DNA of 64,000 nucleotides, from assembly GCF_025869515.1 (NCBI RefSeq), contig NZ_JAOZVR010000055.1, forward strand, positions 389 to 64,388, read 5' to 3'. The translations under genes were made by a program, and so were the position numbers. Numbering within the stretch: the stretch's first letter is position 1; every line of letters starts with the position of its first letter. Of the stretch, positions 15,565 to 62,226 are shown piece after piece. Origin of the DNA: Ferrovibrio sp. (GTDB taxonomy: Bacteria; Pseudomonadota; Alphaproteobacteria; Ferrovibrionales; Ferrovibrionaceae). Under the pieces are notes generated by a model, which did not search any database, was not told the origin of the DNA, and saw only the letters and a list, made by a program, of their open reading frames with translations.

Positions 15565-15620
15565 ATGGGAGGGATAGCGTATCCAGCAGTGATATCACCG
15601 ATATCAAAACGCCCTTCTGA

Positions 15621-15735
15621 GTCCCATTCCGGTCCATTCCGATACGGGTCCGTCCCATTCGATGCCGAATGCGTCCCATTCAGTGCTGTAAGAGTCCCAT
15701 TGCGTGCTGAAAGCGTCCCATTGCGTGCTGAATCG
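15621..15735. repeat. Degenerate tandem array with 21-bp period and a GTCCCATT core
   Basis: CCATT starts at 15624, 15634, 15655, 15676, 15697, 15718; the last two units are nearly identical. Confidence 0.85.
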
Positions 15736-15820
15736 TGACGAGCGGGATCAGGCCGCTCTGCCGACGGCGCATACAAAGATATTCACGATGTCGACTGTGG
15801 CGCACTGCGCAAATCGCAGC

Positions 15821-15850
15821 TTGACATTAAGAACATATACAGTACACAAT
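15821..15850 (+). promoter_or_regulatory. Sigma70-like promoter with a LexA-like GAAC-N7-GTAC in the spacer
   Basis: TTGACA 15821-15826; weak -10 CACAAT 15845-15850 (18-bp spacer); GAAC 15831-15834 and GTAC 15842-15845. Confidence 0.45.
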
Positions 15851-15903: not shown

Positions 15904-17319
15904 ATGAGCACCTTACTGCTCCCGAACGACAACGACCCCTTCGACTTCTCCGGCTCCGTCGGCCGCAACGGCGACAACGACCGCGCCGATGTAATCAAGG
16001 CGCAGATGCTGCTGTCGTCGATGGGCGAATATGACCTGCCCGCACCGGGCTTGCCGACCGGCTGGGCCGGCGAGCCGCTGTTCCGCGCCATCGGAAAGGT
16101 GCAGAAGGCCAATGGCCTGCCGGTCGATGGCCTGCTGCTGCCGCTGCGCGACGGCAGAGTCGGCGAGAATGGCGAAGGCGAGACGCTGATGAGCCTGCAG
16201 GACCTGCTGGGTGAGCGCCTGCGCGGCCAGCCGATCCCGACGCCGCCGCAGGTCGACAGTTTTTTCGAGACTTACGCCCGCGATCCCGATACGCCGCCGC
16301 CTTATCGCACGATGGAGAAACGCGACAGCGACCCAACCCCTCCGCCGCGAACCAAGGAGGTGCGCGGGCCGCAGCCGGAACCGCGTATCCAGCTGCTGAA
16401 TGCGAGCATGACCGACGAAGCACCGGCATCGCCACCTGCCGCAGGCGAGCAGACAGCCGCGCTGCCCGCCGCACTTATCCCAGCGCTGCCGTACTTGCTG
16501 GGAACGGGCGCGCTGGCCTTAGGCGCAGGAGAATATGCGCGGCGTCAGTATGAGAAGGGCAGCGCCGAGACCATTACTCCTCCGCCTTCACGCCCGCTTG
16601 GCGATACGGAAAAAGAGCAAGTGACCGCTCCGCCGTCGCAGTCGCCTGCAATTGACGCATCGCTGCAAGGCCGACCGGCGGCAGACAAACTACCCGATAA
16701 CGAACGCCTGATCCCGCCCGAGACGAAAGACTGGATTTCAGGTTTGCCGCCGGCACAGCAGCCAGTGGCGGAGGGGCTGGCCGGGATTATCGTCGAGCTC
16801 AATCCGCATGGCAGCCGCGGCAAACCGGAAACCGAGAAGGCCAACCGCATCATGGTGCGGACCTGCCTGGAAGAATTGCAGGCCTATCCGGATCTGGCAG
16901 GTCGTTTGGAACACGTTGCGGGTGCGAGCCTGAGGGGCGACGAAGAAGGGAAATATATGAAAGAAGAAGTCATCCGGGCCAGTGAGGGCAAAACATTCAG
17001 CCGCCCAGATAGTACTTTCGGAAGATTCGACGCAGAGAAAAAGGTCGATCAGGCCTCCCCGTACACGGCCCGCATGAATACGGTCGATATCAAGAAAACC
17101 GGCGACGAGCATGATCAGTCGGGCCTGACCGCCAACGAGGGCCGACGCTTCGATAAACTGGAAACCAACATCAAAGTTGGCGTTGCCGGCTGGGCCCGCA
17201 AGATGAAGCCCGGTGAGAGCGAGGCGCAATATGCAGACTATGTTGCGTCACGCTGCCGTGCGATGTGGGATGATCTGGATGGCAAACTGCGGCGGGATGG
17301 CCTGCTACAAAACAGGTGA
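15904..17319 (+). CDS. Peptidoglycan-binding-like N-terminal domain plus unknown C-terminal domain; candidate toxin
   Basis: SVGRNGDNDRADVIKAQMLL...AIGKVQKANGLPVDG; Pro-rich linkers; one hydrophobic segment; C-terminal E...SRPD...NTVD...T..E. Confidence 0.6.
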   Translation: MSTLLLPNDNDPFDFSGSVGRNGDNDRADVIKAQMLLSSMGEYDLPAPGLPTGWAGEPLFRAIGKVQKANGLPVDGLLLPLRDGRVGENGEGETLMSLQDLLGERLRGQPIPTPPQVDSFFETYARDPDTPPPYRTMEKRDSDPTPPPRTKEVRGPQPEPRIQLLNASMTDEAPASPPAAGEQTAALPAALIPALPYLLGTGALALGAGEYARRQYEKGSAETITPPPSRPLGDTEKEQVTAPPSQSPAIDASLQGRPAADKLPDNERLIPPETKDWISGLPPAQQPVAEGLAGIIVELNPHGSRGKPETEKANRIMVRTCLEELQAYPDLAGRLEHVAGASLRGDEEGKYMKEEVIRASEGKTFSRPDSTFGRFDAEKKVDQASPYTARMNTVDIKKTGDEHDQSGLTANEGRRFDKLETNIKVGVAGWARKMKPGESEAQYADYVASRCRAMWDDLDGKLRRDGLLQNR

Positions 17320-59777: not shown

Positions 59778-59819
59778 GCTCGCTGACCGGCCGGGGCCGG
59801 TCTCTCGGATACGCCGTCC

Positions 59820-60398
59820 CTAGTTGGTCCAGACGCCGCTGTCGCTGAACAGCTTGCCGCGGAAGGATTTGTCGGAATACTGGTATTCCGGCATCGCCTT
59901 GAGCTGGTCCTTGGTCAGCGTGGTGCGCACGCTGTCGCCGCCATCGGCGACGGTCAGCGCATTCCAGCCGACCGAGACATTGCGTTCGCCAAGGCCGAGA
60001 AATCCGCCGACGCCGACGATGACCGACTGCACCTTGCCGTCCTTGTCGACATAGACCGACTCGACCTCGCCGATGGTCTCGCCATTGGCATTCTTCAGGT
60101 CGGAGCCGAGCAGTTCCTTGGCATCGACGCTGGCGGTCATGGACGTTGCCGGGCCCGTCGTGGTGGTGCCCGTCGTCGTCCCGGCCGACGTACCGGCCGA
60201 CGTACCGTTCTGGCCGTTCTGGCTGCCGGTGGCGGCGGAACCCGGCGTTGCCGCCGTATTGGGCCCCGGCACCGTCGGGCTCGACTGCGTGGTCGCGGGA
60301 TTGGCATCCTGCTTCTTCATGTCATCGGCCGCCAGGGCGGTCCCGCTCAGGGCCAGGCCGGCTATGGCCGTCGTAATCGCAAGATATCGCGCTCGCAT
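59820..60398 (-). CDS. Exported PRC-barrel domain protein
   Basis: Signal peptide, Thr/Gly-rich linker, LLGSDLKNANGETIGEVE...VIVGVGGFLGLGE..V.V; AAGGAG SD. Confidence 0.9.
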   Translation of the reverse strand: MRARYLAITTAIAGLALSGTALAADDMKKQDANPATTQSSPTVPGPNTAATPGSAATGSQNGQNGTSAGTSAGTTTGTTTTGPATSMTASVDAKELLGSDLKNANGETIGEVESVYVDKDGKVQSVIVGVGGFLGLGERNVSVGWNALTVADGGDSVRTTLTKDQLKAMPEYQYSDKSFRGKLFSDSGVWTN

Positions 60399-60412
60399 TG
60401 AAATCTCCTTTT

Positions 60413-60438
60413 GAATGGGTTGAACGAATGGGTTGAAC
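60413..60438. repeat. Exact 13-bp tandem duplication of GAATGGGTTGAAC
   Basis: Copies at 60413 and 60426, next to the PRC-barrel SD. Confidence 0.95.
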
Positions 60439-60486
60439 ACCCGCCTGGGCGGCTGCCTGCGGAGCCGCGCGGCCAGGCAGATGTCG

Positions 60487-60512
60487 AACCCGCTGCACAG
60501 CGCCGATGTTCC
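60487..60512 (-). promoter_or_regulatory. Sigma-EcfG-type promoter for the PRC-barrel gene
   Basis: Minus strand GGAAC (60512-60508), N17, GGTT (60490-60487). Confidence 0.62.
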
Positions 60513-60627
60513 GATTTTTCCGAGATCGCCTGAGGCGCCAGCGGTCCTCTTGATTTCGACCGTATGTTCCCTATATGTACTCATCTCGGGTTGTGCCCGA
60601 CCGCAGCCTGGACAAGGAGAAAGCGAA

Positions 60628-60748
60628 TAAAACGGAATAAGCCTCGCATAAGCCGGCATAAGCCCGCGATAAGTGGAAATAGACCCGCACTAAGCCGGCT
60701 TAAGCCCCGCGTCAGCTGCGGATAGCGCCCGATAAGCCAAGATAAAAC
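60628..60748. repeat. Helically phased array of 12 TAAGCC-like motifs
   Basis: Motif starts at 60628, 60638, 60649, 60659, 60670, 60680, 60691, 60701, 60712, 60723, 60733, 60743. Confidence 0.88.
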
Positions 60749-60855
60749 TGCGGCAAAGCGCATTCTTGATCGGCCGCGCCGAAGGGGCTACACCAGCCGC
60801 GCTTTCTCCTGTTCGGCCGAGTCTGCCGACTTTCCCTTTCGCATCCGAGGCTTCG

Positions 60856-62226
60856 ATGATCCCGCGCTATACCCGTCCTGAAATGGCCGCCATCTGGGAA
60901 CCGGAGCAGCGCTTCCGCATCTGGTTCGAGATCGAGGCGCATGCCTGCGATGCCCAGGCCCAGCTCGGCGTGATCCCGAAAGCCGCCGCGAAAGAGGTGT
61001 GGAAGAAGGGCAAATGGGACATCGCCCGCATCGATGCGATCGAGCGCGAGACCAAGCATGACGTCATCGCCTTCCTGACCAATCTTGCCGAATATGTCGG
61101 CCCGGCCGCGCGCTTCGTGCACCAGGGCATGACCTCGTCGGATGTGCTGGATACCTGCCTGAATGTGCAGCTGGTGCGCGCCGCCGATCTGCTGATTGCC
61201 GGCACCGACCGCGTGCTGGCCGCGCTGAAAGAGCGCGCCTTCGAATTCAAGCTGCTGCCCACCATCGGCCGCAGTCACGGCATCCATGCCGAGCCGACCA
61301 CCTTCGGGCTGAAGCTCGCCGGCTTCCATGCCGAATTCCAGCGCGCCCGCCGCCGCCTGGTCGCCGCGCGCGAGGAAGTCGCCACCTGCGCGATTTCCGG
61401 CGCGGTGGGCACCTTCGCCAATGTCGATCCTTTTGTTGAGGAATGGGTGGCGAAGAAGCTCGGCCTGCAGCCCGAGACCGTCTCGACCCAGGTGATCCCG
61501 CGCGACCGCCATGCCGCCTATTTCGCGCATCTCGCCGTGGTGGCCTCGTCGGTCGAGCGGCTCGCCACCGAGATTCGCCATCTGCAGCGCTCCGAAGTCA
61601 TGGAAGCCGAAGAGTTCTTCTCGCCCGGCCAGAAGGGCAGCTCGGCGATGCCGCACAAGCGCAACCCGGTGCTGACCGAGAACCTGACCGGTCTCGCTCG
61701 TCTGGTGCGGTCGGCGGTGATCCCGGCACTGGAAAATGTCGCGCTGTGGCATGAACGCGACATCAGCCATTCCTCGGTCGAGCGCGGCATCGGCCCGGAC
61801 GCCACCATCCATCTCGATTTCGCGCTGCATCGCCTCGCCGGCGTGATCGAGAAGCTGGTGGTCTATCCCGACAACATGATGAAGAATCTCGACCGCTTCG
61901 GCGGCCTGGTGCATTCGCAGCGCATCCTGCTGGCGCTGACCCAGGCGGGCCTGTCGCGCGAGGACAGCTATCGCCTGGTGCAGAAGCATGCCCTGAAGAT
62001 CTGGCAGCAGGGCGGCGATTTCCTGCAGGCGCTGCTGGCCGAGAAGGAAGTCACGGCGAAACTGAAGCCGGCGCAGCTGACCGCGCTGTTCGACCTCGGC
62101 TACCACCTCAAGCATGTCGACACCATCTTCGCCCGCGTCTTCGGCAAGGAAGGCGTCACGCCCGGGATCAGGAAGAAGGCCAAAAAGGCTGTAGCTAAGA
62201 AGAAGGCGGCCAAAAAGAAGCGCTGA
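60856..62226 (+). CDS. purB: Adenylosuccinate lyase with a Lys/Ala-rich C-terminal tail
   Basis: MIPRYTRPEM...TKHDVIAF...HQGMTSSDVLD...GRSHGIHAEP...GSSAMPHKRNP...WHERDISHSS. Confidence 0.98.
   Translation: MIPRYTRPEMAAIWEPEQRFRIWFEIEAHACDAQAQLGVIPKAAAKEVWKKGKWDIARIDAIERETKHDVIAFLTNLAEYVGPAARFVHQGMTSSDVLDTCLNVQLVRAADLLIAGTDRVLAALKERAFEFKLLPTIGRSHGIHAEPTTFGLKLAGFHAEFQRARRRLVAAREEVATCAISGAVGTFANVDPFVEEWVAKKLGLQPETVSTQVIPRDRHAAYFAHLAVVASSVERLATEIRHLQRSEVMEAEEFFSPGQKGSSAMPHKRNPVLTENLTGLARLVRSAVIPALENVALWHERDISHSSVERGIGPDATIHLDFALHRLAGVIEKLVVYPDNMMKNLDRFGGLVHSQRILLALTQAGLSREDSYRLVQKHALKIWQQGGDFLQALLAEKEVTAKLKPAQLTALFDLGYHLKHVDTIFARVFGKEGVTPGIRKKAKKAVAKKKAAKKKR

What the first reader, a model, noticed from the sequence alone, without database searches (positions are those of the whole stretch)
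60628..60748. Twelve TAAGCC-like motifs phased at one DNA helical turn upstream of purB
Spacings are 10, 11, 10, 11, 10, 11, 10, 11, 11, 10 and 10 bp (mean about 10.5), with six exact TAAGCC copies and variable spacers. All motifs would lie on one face of the helix over 120 bp, between the purB promoter region and a stress promoter. The overlapping 60-aa minus ORF is Leu-periodic but uses four TTA codons, very atypical here. Inference: a wrapping or bending platform for a nucleoid or regulatory protein, or a repeated-site RNA sponge (GGCUUA on the minus strand). No standard feature class describes it.
Basis: partly seen in the sequence, partly recalled or inferred. Interest (0 to 1): 0.72.

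Follow-up and report, generated by a model that had tools for sequence, protein, structure and literature searches.

The report
SOS-promoter-driven repeat array cassette
The twelve evenly spaced TAAGCC-like motifs are real, but they are one of about 40 similar repeat arrays in this Ferrovibrio genome; most lie just behind a DNA-damage (LexA-type) promoter, so this is a genus-specific repeat cassette, probably induced by DNA damage, and not a purB control site; what the repeats do is still unknown.

Summary
Twelve ATAAGCC-like heptamers lie at 60627-60748 with spacings of 10 or 11 bp. Six are exact TAAGCC copies on one strand.

The array is not unique and not specific to purB. The genome (Ferrovibrio, 4.9 Mb) holds about 40 such arrays in several motif families: AAACGAACC, ATAAGCC, GGATCGAAC, TTGGC and GAATGGGAC. 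Periods are 10, 10.5 or 21 nt.

At least 22 arrays sit 35-190 nt downstream of a sigma-70 promoter whose -10 lies inside an alphaproteobacterial LexA box (GTTC-N7-GTTC); only 3 lie on the other side of a box. In the window this promoter is at 60550-60580 and fires towards the array. purB has its own conserved promoter at 60765-60793.

Other Ferrovibrio species show the same promoter-plus-array layout with species-specific motifs. Other alphaproteobacterial genera have the promoter type but no arrays. The 60-aa minus-strand ORF is not conserved.

Best reading: a damage-induced, non-coding, A-rich and U-poor repeat transcript, of the long-known but unexplained class of dispersed intergenic short tandem repeats. 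The SOS-promoter link is the new element. Function is unresolved and no transcript data exist.

Within this scan, the sister array in this window was already noted (e1-5279533). Decamer repeat families were noted in other phyla, but none with a LexA link.

The parts
60550..60555 (+). -35 element TTGATT of the cassette promoter
   Evidence: A TTGAn -35 at the same distance is seen in about 20 sister cassettes and in other species.
60566..60580 (+). LexA-type (SOS) box GTTC-cctatat-GTAC. The -10 hexamer CTATAT (60571-60576) lies inside its 7-nt spacer.
   Evidence: GAAC-N7-GAAC is also found at the lexA promoter of genus members and GAAC-N7-GAAT upstream of recA in this genome. LexA binding itself is inferred.
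60586..60600 (+). Predicted 5'-proximal hairpin of the putative transcript (UCGGGU-UGU-GCCCGA)
   Evidence: ViennaRNA fold of the leader. Comparable 5' hairpins with different sequence appear in C51 and L025. Weak evidence.
60610..60621 (+). Leader module GGACAAGGAGAA (looks like a Shine-Dalgarno site, but no conserved start codon follows)
   Evidence: GGACARGGAGA occurs 10 times in the genome, 7 of them directly in front of arrays. It is invariant in the orthologues L019 and L025.
60627..60748 (+). Array of 12 ATAAGCC-like units at alternating 10/11-nt spacing (the finding)
   Evidence: The first six or so units align in register with L019 and L025.
60749..60767 (+). Small hairpin UGCG-gcaaag-CGCA followed by UUCUU; possible weak 3' end of the array transcript
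   Evidence: Sequence reading. The stretch CTGCGGCAAAnnGC is conserved in L019 and L025. Not detected as a terminator by the scan. Speculative.
60765..60793 (+). purB's own promoter: -35 CTTGAT (60765-60770), 17-nt spacer, -10 CTACAC (60788-60793)
   Evidence: Conserved in all 12 Ferrovibrio purB loci inspected, including the three without any array element (L024, L027, L029).
60856..62226 (+). purB (adenylosuccinate lyase), the neighbouring gene; not part of the cassette
   Evidence: 98% identity to a Ferrovibrio terrae MAG.
60581..60763 (-). 60-aa ORF over the array: not a gene
   Evidence: Stops in all six frames in L019 and no in-frame similarity in L025.
15621..15735 (-). Sister array in the same window: GAATGGGAC units at a 21-nt period. 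Its LexA-type box is at 15831-15845. A TGATATCA x2 module lies at 15590-15609.
   Evidence: Same layout: box, then leader, then array.

Best explanation
SHOWN:
- The array is the payload of a self-contained intergenic cassette. The cassette has about 40 copies in this genome and occurs across the genus Ferrovibrio.
- Its layout is a sigma-70-type promoter (TTGAn-N15-17-CTATAT), with the -10 embedded in an alphaproteobacterial LexA operator (GTTC-N7-GTTC), then a 35-190-nt leader, then 5-12 head-to-tail units of 10, 10/11 or 21 nt.
- Each unit has a conserved 5-8-nt core and a free spacer. The core is always on the strand read from the promoter.
- The cassette is independent of purB, which has its own conserved promoter.

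INFERRED:
- LexA keeps the promoter shut. After DNA damage the cassette is transcribed into a non-coding, A-rich, U-poor, purine-rich and largely unstructured RNA.
- This RNA would display about a dozen equivalent short motifs. The most likely mechanism is a multivalent platform, made only during the SOS response, for a still unknown nucleic-acid-binding factor. It would act at the RNA level, or through the act of transcribing the repeats.
- The species-specific drift of the motif would then reflect co-evolution with that factor, or gene conversion among copies.

The architecture is well supported. The function is a low-confidence guess.
For: - Dispersed family.
- Promoter plus box upstream and directional: 22 arrays downstream of a box against 3 on the other side. 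The -35 is aligned in sister copies.
- The box matches the lexA and recA operators of the genus. The same compact promoter type occurs in other Alphaproteobacteria.
- Other Ferrovibrio species: 11 of 14 boxed promoters found by pattern alone are followed by arrays with other motifs. At the purB locus itself, relatives carry the box plus arrays of CAGCGAACC, CAAAACC, CAACGGGA or ATAAGCC.
- Strand asymmetry of the arrays relative to the promoter: A 1292 against T 408 over 40 arrays.
- Orientation relative to neighbouring genes is random (21 same, 19 opposite), and there is no recurrent partner gene. This marks a stand-alone unit.
- The leaders are unrelated between many copies while promoter and array persist.
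- The array is not phase-locked to the promoter, which argues against a rigid DNA-face coupling.
- Not coding.
- The purB promoter is conserved with or without the element.
Against: - No transcript data exist. The RNA runs found cover only purB of other organisms.
- Intrinsic terminators are not enriched after the arrays (9 of 40 against 6 of 40 in the control).
- There is no RNA structure signal (mean z about -0.7 on both strands) and no Rfam match.
- No binding factor has been identified.
- A motif that differs between families within one genome is awkward for a single binding partner.
- About 15 of the 40 arrays have no recognisable box.
- One family (TTGGC) breaks the A-rich rule.
- The box could instead be bound by the HTH-S24 (cI/RogA-like) repressor encoded at own-genome contig C85.
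- A period close to one DNA helical turn is more naturally a DNA-level property.
Confidence: 0.4

Rival explanations
1. Neutral or selfish short tandem repeats. The arrays would be fast-evolving simple-sequence expansions with no function of their own. They would spread and homogenise by duplication of an SOS-promoter cassette, slippage and gene conversion, like other unexplained intergenic repeat families.
For: - Copy number per genome varies wildly within the genus, from 0 to 88 pattern hits.
- The motif drifts between species, and arrays decay by substitution.
- The purB-upstream region has four different left neighbours in relatives, each with an element at the junction. This is consistent with recombination between copies.
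- There are no terminators, no RNA structure and no partner gene.
- Comparable repeat families in other phyla remain without a known function (PMC4692102, PMC4679880).
Against: - Promoter and array stay coupled although the leaders between them are unrelated in sequence and length.
- The coupling is kept in at least four species with different motifs.
- The core is conserved while spacers are free, and the first six units align in register between species whose other intergenic DNA does not align.
- No terminal repeats or transposase link is evident.
Confidence: 0.25
2. DNA-level platform. The phased cores would lie on one face of the helix and bind or wrap a nucleoid-associated or regulatory protein, or make intrinsically curved DNA. 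Transcription from the SOS promoter would remodel this structure.
For: - The unit length is always 10, 10.5 or 21 bp (168 spacings of 10, 34 of 11, 28 of 21), close to the helical repeat whatever the motif.
- AT-rich cores alternate with GC-rich spacers in a 64% GC genome.
- The copies are spread around the chromosome.
- Analogues exist: T7 has 12 CCTAAAG heptamers at about 13 bp beside its promoters, as do centromere and operator arrays.
Against: - Most families have a strict 10.0-bp period, which drifts half a turn over about 100 bp.
- There is no phase relation to the promoter.
- No cognate DNA-binding gene lies next to the arrays.
- The strong strand asymmetry relative to the direction of transcription is not needed for a double-strand binding site.
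- Several different motifs coexist in one genome.
Confidence: 0.2
3. Packaging or recombination signals for the domesticated T7-like phage particle cluster of the genus. The cluster would be co-induced through the same box, by analogy with the repeat arrays next to the T7 concatemer junction.
For: - This genome has an intact T7-type portal gene (PF12236, E 7.6e-133) next to an HTH-S24 repressor, with LexA-type boxes in the shared control region.
- Arrays were found only in the genus in which I found the portal gene (the AI notes e1-5273299 and e1-5176310 say it inherits the particle cluster).
- The T7 SRL region has a comparable anatomy.
Against: - Array counts do not follow portal integrity across 24 genus genomes. 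G006 has 41 hits with a truncated portal, G018 has 15 with none, and G012, G017 and G008 have intact portals with 0 hits.
- No array lies within or beside the particle cluster.
Confidence: 0.05
4. Rho-dependent attenuator or insulator. The unstructured, U-poor repeat RNA would act as a rut-like loading site that stops transcripts from SOS promoters before they run into neighbouring genes.
For: - AACGA-type arrays are nearly unstructured (MFE -2 to -20 kcal/mol per about 100 nt) and have more C than G.
- There are no intrinsic terminators behind the arrays.
- Half of the cassettes point at convergent genes.
Against: - The ATAAGCC family, including this window's array, has no more C than G in most of its arrays.
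- The idea does not explain why the promoters exist or why motif and period are conserved.
Confidence: 0.07
5. A small protein with heptad repeats is encoded over the array, either the minus-strand 60-aa ORF or the plus-strand basic ORF.
For: Both ORFs are open in the window, because alternating 10/11 spacing makes a 21-nt (7-codon) period.
Against: - All six frames are closed in L019, and there is no in-frame similarity in L025.
- Sister arrays have 10-nt periods and unit insertions or deletions that are not multiples of three.
- No conserved start codon follows the Shine-Dalgarno-like module.
Confidence: 0.02

Closest known systems
Dispersed intergenic short tandem repeat families: Xanthomonas GGGAATC and Nostoc GGGGA(T/C)T heptamers (PMC4692102); TAACTGA repeats of Beggiatoaceae, Cyanobacteria and Bacteroidetes (PMC4679880)
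   Same: Many short head-to-tail arrays of 6-10-nt units lie scattered between genes. They are lineage-restricted, their copy number and motif change quickly, and their function is unknown.
   Different: - The units here have a conserved core plus a free 3-4-nt spacer, with a period of 10-10.5 nt.
- The arrays are not anchored to start or stop codons.
- Most carry their own LexA-type promoter. I did not find this described for any such family.
Alphaproteobacterial LexA operator GTTC-N7-GTTC (SOS box)
   Same: A direct repeat with a 7-nt spacer overlaps the -10 of a sigma-70 promoter. The same motif is found at lexA and recA in the genus and in other alphaproteobacterial genera.
   Different: Here the operator drives a repeat array instead of a gene. 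One half-site in the window copy reads GTAC. Binding by LexA is not demonstrated.
Nostoc PCC 7120 recF/recO promoters with LexA boxes plus contiguous heptamer repeats (bioRxiv 10.1101/2022.06.06.494920)
   Same: A LexA box and a short tandem repeat array lie side by side in one control region. Those authors also suspect an unidentified repeat-binding protein.
   Different: In Nostoc the repeats lie in front of DNA-repair genes and abut start codons. Here the cassettes stand alone, number in the dozens, and are unrelated in sequence.
SRL/SRR repeat regions of phage T7 (NC_001604, about 175-340)
   Same: Twelve copies of a heptamer with variable spacers lie in a regular array next to promoters. 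That their function is unresolved is from my own knowledge.
   Different: The period is about 13 bp. They lie at phage genome ends. No sequence similarity. Array counts here do not track the T7-like cluster.
Operator, centromere and iteron arrays (parC of R1, parH, tubC) and OmpR/PhoB-type 10-11-bp direct repeats
   Same: Direct repeats are spaced by about one helical turn and bound cooperatively on one face of the DNA.
   Different: Those arrays sit next to the gene of their binding protein, or in a promoter they control. Here there is no recurrent neighbouring gene, no phase-lock to the promoter, and there are many motif variants.
Multi-site sponge RNAs (CsrB/RsmZ type)
   Same: One transcript carries many copies of a short motif and would titrate a binding protein.
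   Different: Sponge RNAs present their motifs in hairpin loops and end in terminators. Here there is no structure signal and no terminator enrichment, and no partner is known.

Membership tests
Dispersed intergenic short tandem repeat family (STRR/heptamer-decamer type) | Head-to-tail repeats of a 6-10-nt unit | tested here: met
   Spacings are 10 (168 times), 11 (34 times) and 21 (28 times) over 40 arrays. The units are core plus variable spacer rather than perfect copies.
Dispersed intergenic short tandem repeat family (STRR/heptamer-decamer type) | Many copies scattered in intergenic regions of one genome | tested here: met
   About 40 strong arrays on about 35 contigs; nearly all lie outside long ORFs.
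Dispersed intergenic short tandem repeat family (STRR/heptamer-decamer type) | Lineage-restricted, with rapid turnover of copy number and motif | tested here: met
   Motif-specific patterns were found only in the genus among 400 Alphaproteobacteria. There are 0-88 hits per genus genome. Motifs are species-specific.
Dispersed intergenic short tandem repeat family (STRR/heptamer-decamer type) | Fixed position or orientation relative to start or stop codons of neighbouring genes | tested here: not met
   21 co-directional against 19 opposite, at variable distances. Orientation is fixed relative to the cassette's own promoter instead.
Alphaproteobacterial LexA (SOS) operator | GTTC-N7-GTTC direct repeat | tested here: met
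   The window has GTTC-cctatat-GTAC at 60566-60580 (one mismatch). There are 22 array-linked boxes with at most one mismatch.
Alphaproteobacterial LexA (SOS) operator | Same motif at lexA and recA promoters of the lineage | tested here: met
   GAAC-ctcatta-GAAC lies between the -35 and the gene at lexA of G007 and G016. GAAC-N7-GAAT lies upstream of recA in this genome.
Alphaproteobacterial LexA (SOS) operator | Overlap with the core promoter | tested here: met
   The -10 CTATAT lies in the spacer and the -35 TTGATT lies 15 nt upstream.
Alphaproteobacterial LexA (SOS) operator | Bound by LexA and derepressed by DNA damage | not testable with these tools
   No ChIP, EMSA or expression data. lexA itself is missing from this 94.7%-complete assembly but is present in the genus. 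An HTH-S24 paralogue could be an alternative binder.
Operator/centromere/iteron protein-binding array | Cognate DNA-binding protein gene adjacent to the array | tested here: not met
   All-against-all BLAST of flanking ORFs finds no recurrent family.
Operator/centromere/iteron protein-binding array | Repeats on one helical face (period about 10.5 bp) | tested here: inconclusive
   The ATAAGCC family is at 10.4-10.6 bp, but most sister families are at exactly 10.0. There is no phase-lock to the promoter.
Sponge sRNA (CsrB/RsmZ-like) | Discrete transcript with a terminator and motifs displayed in stem-loops | tested here: not met
   No terminator enrichment, fold z about -0.7, no Rfam match.
Protein-coding heptad-repeat gene | Open frame and protein-level conservation in orthologues | tested here: not met

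The most novel reading that the evidence does not exclude
In Ferrovibrio, a large share of the strong LexA-type promoters (about 25 in this genome, roughly 40% of the LexA-type boxes scored here) drive non-coding repeat arrays, not repair genes. The genus would then have a second, undescribed arm of the DNA-damage response: dozens of dispersed loci that on induction make purine-rich, U-poor repeat transcripts. These transcripts, or R-loop-prone transcription through the phased repeats, would act as multivalent platforms for a factor involved in recombination, replication restart, chromosome organisation or particle packaging.
Probability: 0.3. Interest if true: 0.8.

Novelty: new variant of a known kind. 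Interest (0 to 1): 0.6.

Why it matters
Dispersed short tandem repeats between bacterial genes have been known for decades and remain unexplained. Here one such family is tied, in a fixed orientation and across species, to a defined and inducible promoter type, the SOS/LexA operator.

This gives a concrete experimental handle: induce DNA damage in a cultured Ferrovibrio and watch what the arrays make and bind. If the arrays are functional, they would be a new output of the SOS response. If they are not, they show how one promoter cassette and a simple repeat can colonise a genome, take up a large share of its LexA sites and mark synteny breakpoints.

For annotation, the result removes a supposed purB regulator and locates the real purB promoter.

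Tried and rejected
- **Rfam** (evalue mode) on 59800-61400: only chance-level hits.
- **BLAST** of the element against plasmid and phage collections: no match.
- **Public reads:** the RNA runs cover only purB of other organisms. The one good holder is the source groundwater metagenome. No information on transcription.
- **Viral-contig scans** for TAAGCC and AACGA arrays returned more than 115 hits each. A reversed control pattern did the same, so the hits are generic tandem repeats and uninformative.
- **Packaging-site idea:** counts of AACG decamer arrays do not follow the integrity of the T7-like portal across 24 genus genomes.
- **Partner gene:** no recurrent neighbouring protein family.
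- **Terminators:** not enriched behind the arrays.
- **RNA structure:** no signal on either strand.
- **Helical phase-lock** between LexA box and array: absent.
- **Coding:** rejected.
- **LexA half-site decoy idea:** AACGAAC arrays contain GAAC, but at 10-nt and not 11-nt spacing, and the ATAAGCC arrays contain none (reading).
- **TGATATCA x2-3 module** at the far end of some arrays: probably the operator of a FitA/VapB-like antitoxin gene that follows it in C93 and L121. Only 4-5 copies exist, so it is not a general part of the cassette.
- **Earlier error corrected:** I first read the AACGA arrays as 10/11 alternating. One search shows a strict 10-nt period.
- **Not used:** structure prediction, complex prediction and the large protein searches. 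No protein is at stake.

Full report
**1.

Reading the window shows twelve ATAAGCC-like units whose TAA starts lie at 60628, 60638, 60649, 60659, 60670, 60680, 60691, 60701, 60712, 60723, 60733 and 60743. The spacings are 10, 11, 10, 11, 10, 11, 10, 11, 11, 10, 10, as reported.

Six units are exact TAAGCC on the + strand. The whole 64-kb window has only 11 exact copies on both strands, which equals the shuffle expectation of 11.5, so the local cluster is far beyond chance. Tandem Repeats Finder reports 10-, 11- and 21-bp periods. The core phase coherence is 0.99 at a best period of 10.55 bp.

**2. The array is one of a family**

A search of the window's own assembly (4.89 Mb, 126 contigs, 64% GC) with the element found related stretches on four other contigs. 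Clustering of TAAGCC hits gave nine arrays, with spacings always multiples of about 10.5.

A motif-agnostic phase-coherence scan found about 40 strong arrays in several motif families:
- AAACGAACC (about 18 copies)
- ATAAGCC (about 12)
- GGATCGAAC and relatives (about 8)
- TTGGC (about 6)
- GAATGGGAC

One GAATGGGAC array lies in this same window at 15621-15735 on the minus strand. An earlier first-stage note had flagged it separately (e1-5279533).

The period is strictly 10 nt in most families, 10/11 alternating in the ATAAGCC family and 21 nt in the GAATGGGAC family. The tally is 168 spacings of 10, 34 of 11 and 28 of 21.

**3. What sits in front of the arrays**

Most arrays are preceded by a conserved promoter. 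It has a -35 TTGAn and, 15-17 nt later, a -10 of the CTATAT/TATATG type. This -10 lies inside the 7-nt spacer of a GTTC-N7-GTTC direct repeat. In the window these are TTGATT at 60550-60555, GTTC-cctatat-GTAC at 60566-80 and CTATAT at 60571-76.

GTTC-N7-GTTC is the alphaproteobacterial LexA operator (established knowledge). In this genus the same motif lies in the lexA promoter (GAAC-ctcatta-GAAC) and upstream of recA in this genome (GAAC-N7-GAAT). Canonical lexA is missing from this 94.7%-complete assembly. It is present in all four genus genomes tested and in one genome of a neighbouring genus of the family.

Of 194 candidate boxes with AT-rich spacers, 22 have a strong array within 330 nt in the direction of the promoter and only 3 have one on the other side. 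With a position weight matrix the figures are 22 of 35 strong boxes, though that matrix was trained on the array-linked boxes.

The leaders between box and array range from 35 to 190 nt and are mostly unrelated. Two recurrent modules stand out:
- GGACARGGAGA occurs 10 times in the genome, 7 of them in front of arrays. It lies at 60610-60620 here (60610-60621 with the next A, as listed under parts).
- CATCGTGAAT occurs 13 times, 6 of them next to arrays.

**4. Independence from purB**

The organism is a Ferrovibrio (purB 98% identical to an F. terrae MAG). In twelve Ferrovibrio purB loci, purB keeps a conserved promoter of its own. In the window it is CTTGAT at 60765-70, a 17-nt spacer, then CTACAC at 60788-93. 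This includes the three species that have no array element at all.

Nine of the twelve relatives carry a box-plus-array element at the same place, but with different motifs: CAGCGAACC in L018; CAAAACC in L020-22, L026 and L030; CAACGGGA in L028; ATAAGCC in L019 and L025. They also have four different left-hand neighbours. The element therefore sits at a synteny breakpoint and is not a purB operator.

In the orthologous pair L019/L025 the promoter, the box, the GGACAAGGAGA module and the first six or so ATAAG units align in register with the window. Other intergenic sequence does not align.

**5. Not coding**

The minus-strand 60-aa ORF and the plus-strand basic ORF are open only because a 10/11 alternation gives a 21-nt period. 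L019 has stops in all six frames and L025 shows no in-frame similarity. Sister arrays with 10-nt units cannot keep a frame. No conserved start codon follows the Shine-Dalgarno-like module.

**6. Properties of the arrays**

- *Composition.* On the strand read from the promoter they are A-rich and T-poor (A 1292, C 1091, G 1079, T 408 over 40 arrays). All families except TTGGC are 56-71% purine, and AACGA-type arrays have 0-5 T per 100 nt.
- *Structure.* Predicted RNA structure is not different from shuffles on either strand (mean z about -0.7).
- *Terminators.* Intrinsic terminators are not enriched after the arrays (9 of 40 against 6 of 40).
- *Context.* The arrays are intergenic. Their orientation relative to the next gene is random (21 against 19), and no protein family recurs beside them.
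- *Phase.* The helical phase between box and array is random (Rayleigh p 0.83 and 0.48).

**7. Distribution**

Motif-specific patterns occur only in the genus. TAAGCC x3 is found in 4 of 24 genus genomes and in none of 17 others. AACGA x3 gives 76 hits in this genome and 13 in another Ferrovibrio. The other 398 Alphaproteobacteria, including another genus of the family, gave 0-3 hits each, no more than the reversed control pattern.

An AACG decamer pattern hits 17 of 24 genus genomes with 0-88 matches, and controls are near zero.

In three other Ferrovibrio species, 11 of 14 promoters found by the box pattern alone are followed by arrays with species-typical motifs such as CAAAACG, GAAACGGTCAC and AAACGG. 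The same compact promoter-plus-box exists in other alphaproteobacterial genera at 1-3 per genome, but none of the 14 inspected is followed by an array. The arrays are therefore a Ferrovibrio-specific addition to a general SOS promoter type.

**8. Mechanism**

The architecture is shown. Everything about function is inference.

- *RNA-level reading.* The fixed orientation relative to the promoter, the strand asymmetry, the lack of phase-lock and the independence from neighbouring genes favour a transcribed payload. The best guess is a damage-induced, non-coding, unstructured repeat RNA that offers about a dozen equivalent sites to an unknown factor. A variant is that transcription through purine-rich, U-poor repeats has an effect in cis, since RNA-DNA hybrids of that composition are stable (general knowledge).
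- *Against it.* There are no transcript data, no terminators, no structure and no known partner. Several motifs coexist in one genome.
However, most units are exactly 10.0 bp, and no cognate binding gene is nearby.
- *Neutral or selfish repeats.* This reading fits the erratic copy numbers and the breakpoint location. It has to explain why promoter and array stay coupled across unrelated leaders and across species.
- *T7-like particle link.* The genome has a T7-like particle cluster (portal E 7.6e-133), and T7 itself has 12 CCTAAAG repeats at about 13 bp. I tested the link and it is not supported: array counts do not follow portal integrity.

**9. Comparison with what is known**

The closest described class is the dispersed intergenic short tandem repeat. 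Examples are the heptamers of Xanthomonas and Nostoc (PMC4692102) and the TAACTGA repeats (PMC4679880). Their function is still open; candidate binders discussed for TAACTGA include S1, Csp and CsrA.

A Nostoc preprint describes LexA boxes and heptamer repeats side by side at recF and recO and suspects a repeat-binding protein (10.1101/2022.06.06.494920).

I found no description of a repeat family that carries its own LexA-type promoter. This scan's own notes held no look-alike of this sequence. They do hold decamer repeat families from other phyla, including a CGAAC-core one.

**10. Verdict**

- The feature is a member of a Ferrovibrio-specific, SOS-promoter-linked family of phased short tandem repeat cassettes. 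This is a new variant of a known but unexplained kind, and its function is unresolved.

Noticed in passing
window 15590-15845: Second cassette of the same family on the minus strand. It has a LexA-type box at 15831-45 (GAAC-atataca-GTAC), a leader with CATCGTGAAT, six GAATGGGAC units at a 21-nt period (each unit holds a CATTCAGyGCTGAATG-type palindrome), then TGATATCA x2 (15590-15609) and a REP-like hairpin. On the + strand the same box overlaps a TTGACA promoter pointing at the toxin-like PG_binding_1 gene at 15904.
   Followed up: partly
own genome: C116:112250-112582, C116:115365-116792, C52:86820-87746; window 15904; also G024 locus L107: Several paralogous proteins with a PG_binding_1 domain lie directly behind LexA-type boxes. 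So do a trypsin-like peptidase, a Gp49/HigB-like toxin, MraZ and an IS1595 transposase. The strongest boxes of this genome flank accessory or toxin-like genes rather than classic repair genes.
   Followed up: partly
own genome C93:129721-129760 and locus L121 (G005): Three tandem TGATATCA palindromes at 10-bp spacing lie at the far end of an array and directly precede a ribbon-helix-helix FitA/VapB-like antitoxin gene (protein starts MASIVIRNIDDDLK). They are probably its operator. Here an SOS promoter, an array and a toxin-antitoxin operon lie in series.
   Followed up: no
own genome C85:40599-43783: An HTH-S24 (cI/RogA-like) repressor gene with a LexA-type box in its promoter lies back to back with an operon that holds an intact T7-type portal gene (PF12236, E 7.6e-133). 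Portal remnants of about 120 aa occur in several other Ferrovibrio genomes.
   Followed up: partly
window 60765-60793: The purB promoter (CTTGAT-N17-CTACAC) is conserved in all Ferrovibrio purB loci examined. The region just upstream of it has four different neighbouring genes among relatives, so it is a rearrangement hot spot.
   Followed up: partly
locus L126 (G016), lexA 5' region: Between the lexA promoter box and the lexA start codon lie two 21-nt direct repeats (TTTATTCCGGCCTTCyGCA). On the opposite strand they read like the GGAATAAA-type units of the arrays.
   Followed up: no
loci L507, L515, L518 (genome G119, another alphaproteobacterial genus): Three LexA-box promoters in one genome are each followed by the same conserved stretch of about 120 nt (begins ATGAGGCyCAAGCTGTGTC). 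This could be an SOS-induced small RNA or small-gene family.
   Followed up: no
own genome C75:32879-33054: A TTGGC decamer array lies about 90-160 nt downstream of the recA stop codon.
   Followed up: no
window 60398-60520, minus strand: The PRC-barrel gene (start at 60398) has a GGAAC-N16-GGGTT EcfG-type promoter match near 60480-60512 and a 13-nt direct repeat (GAATGGGTTGAAC x2) in its 5' region.
   Followed up: no
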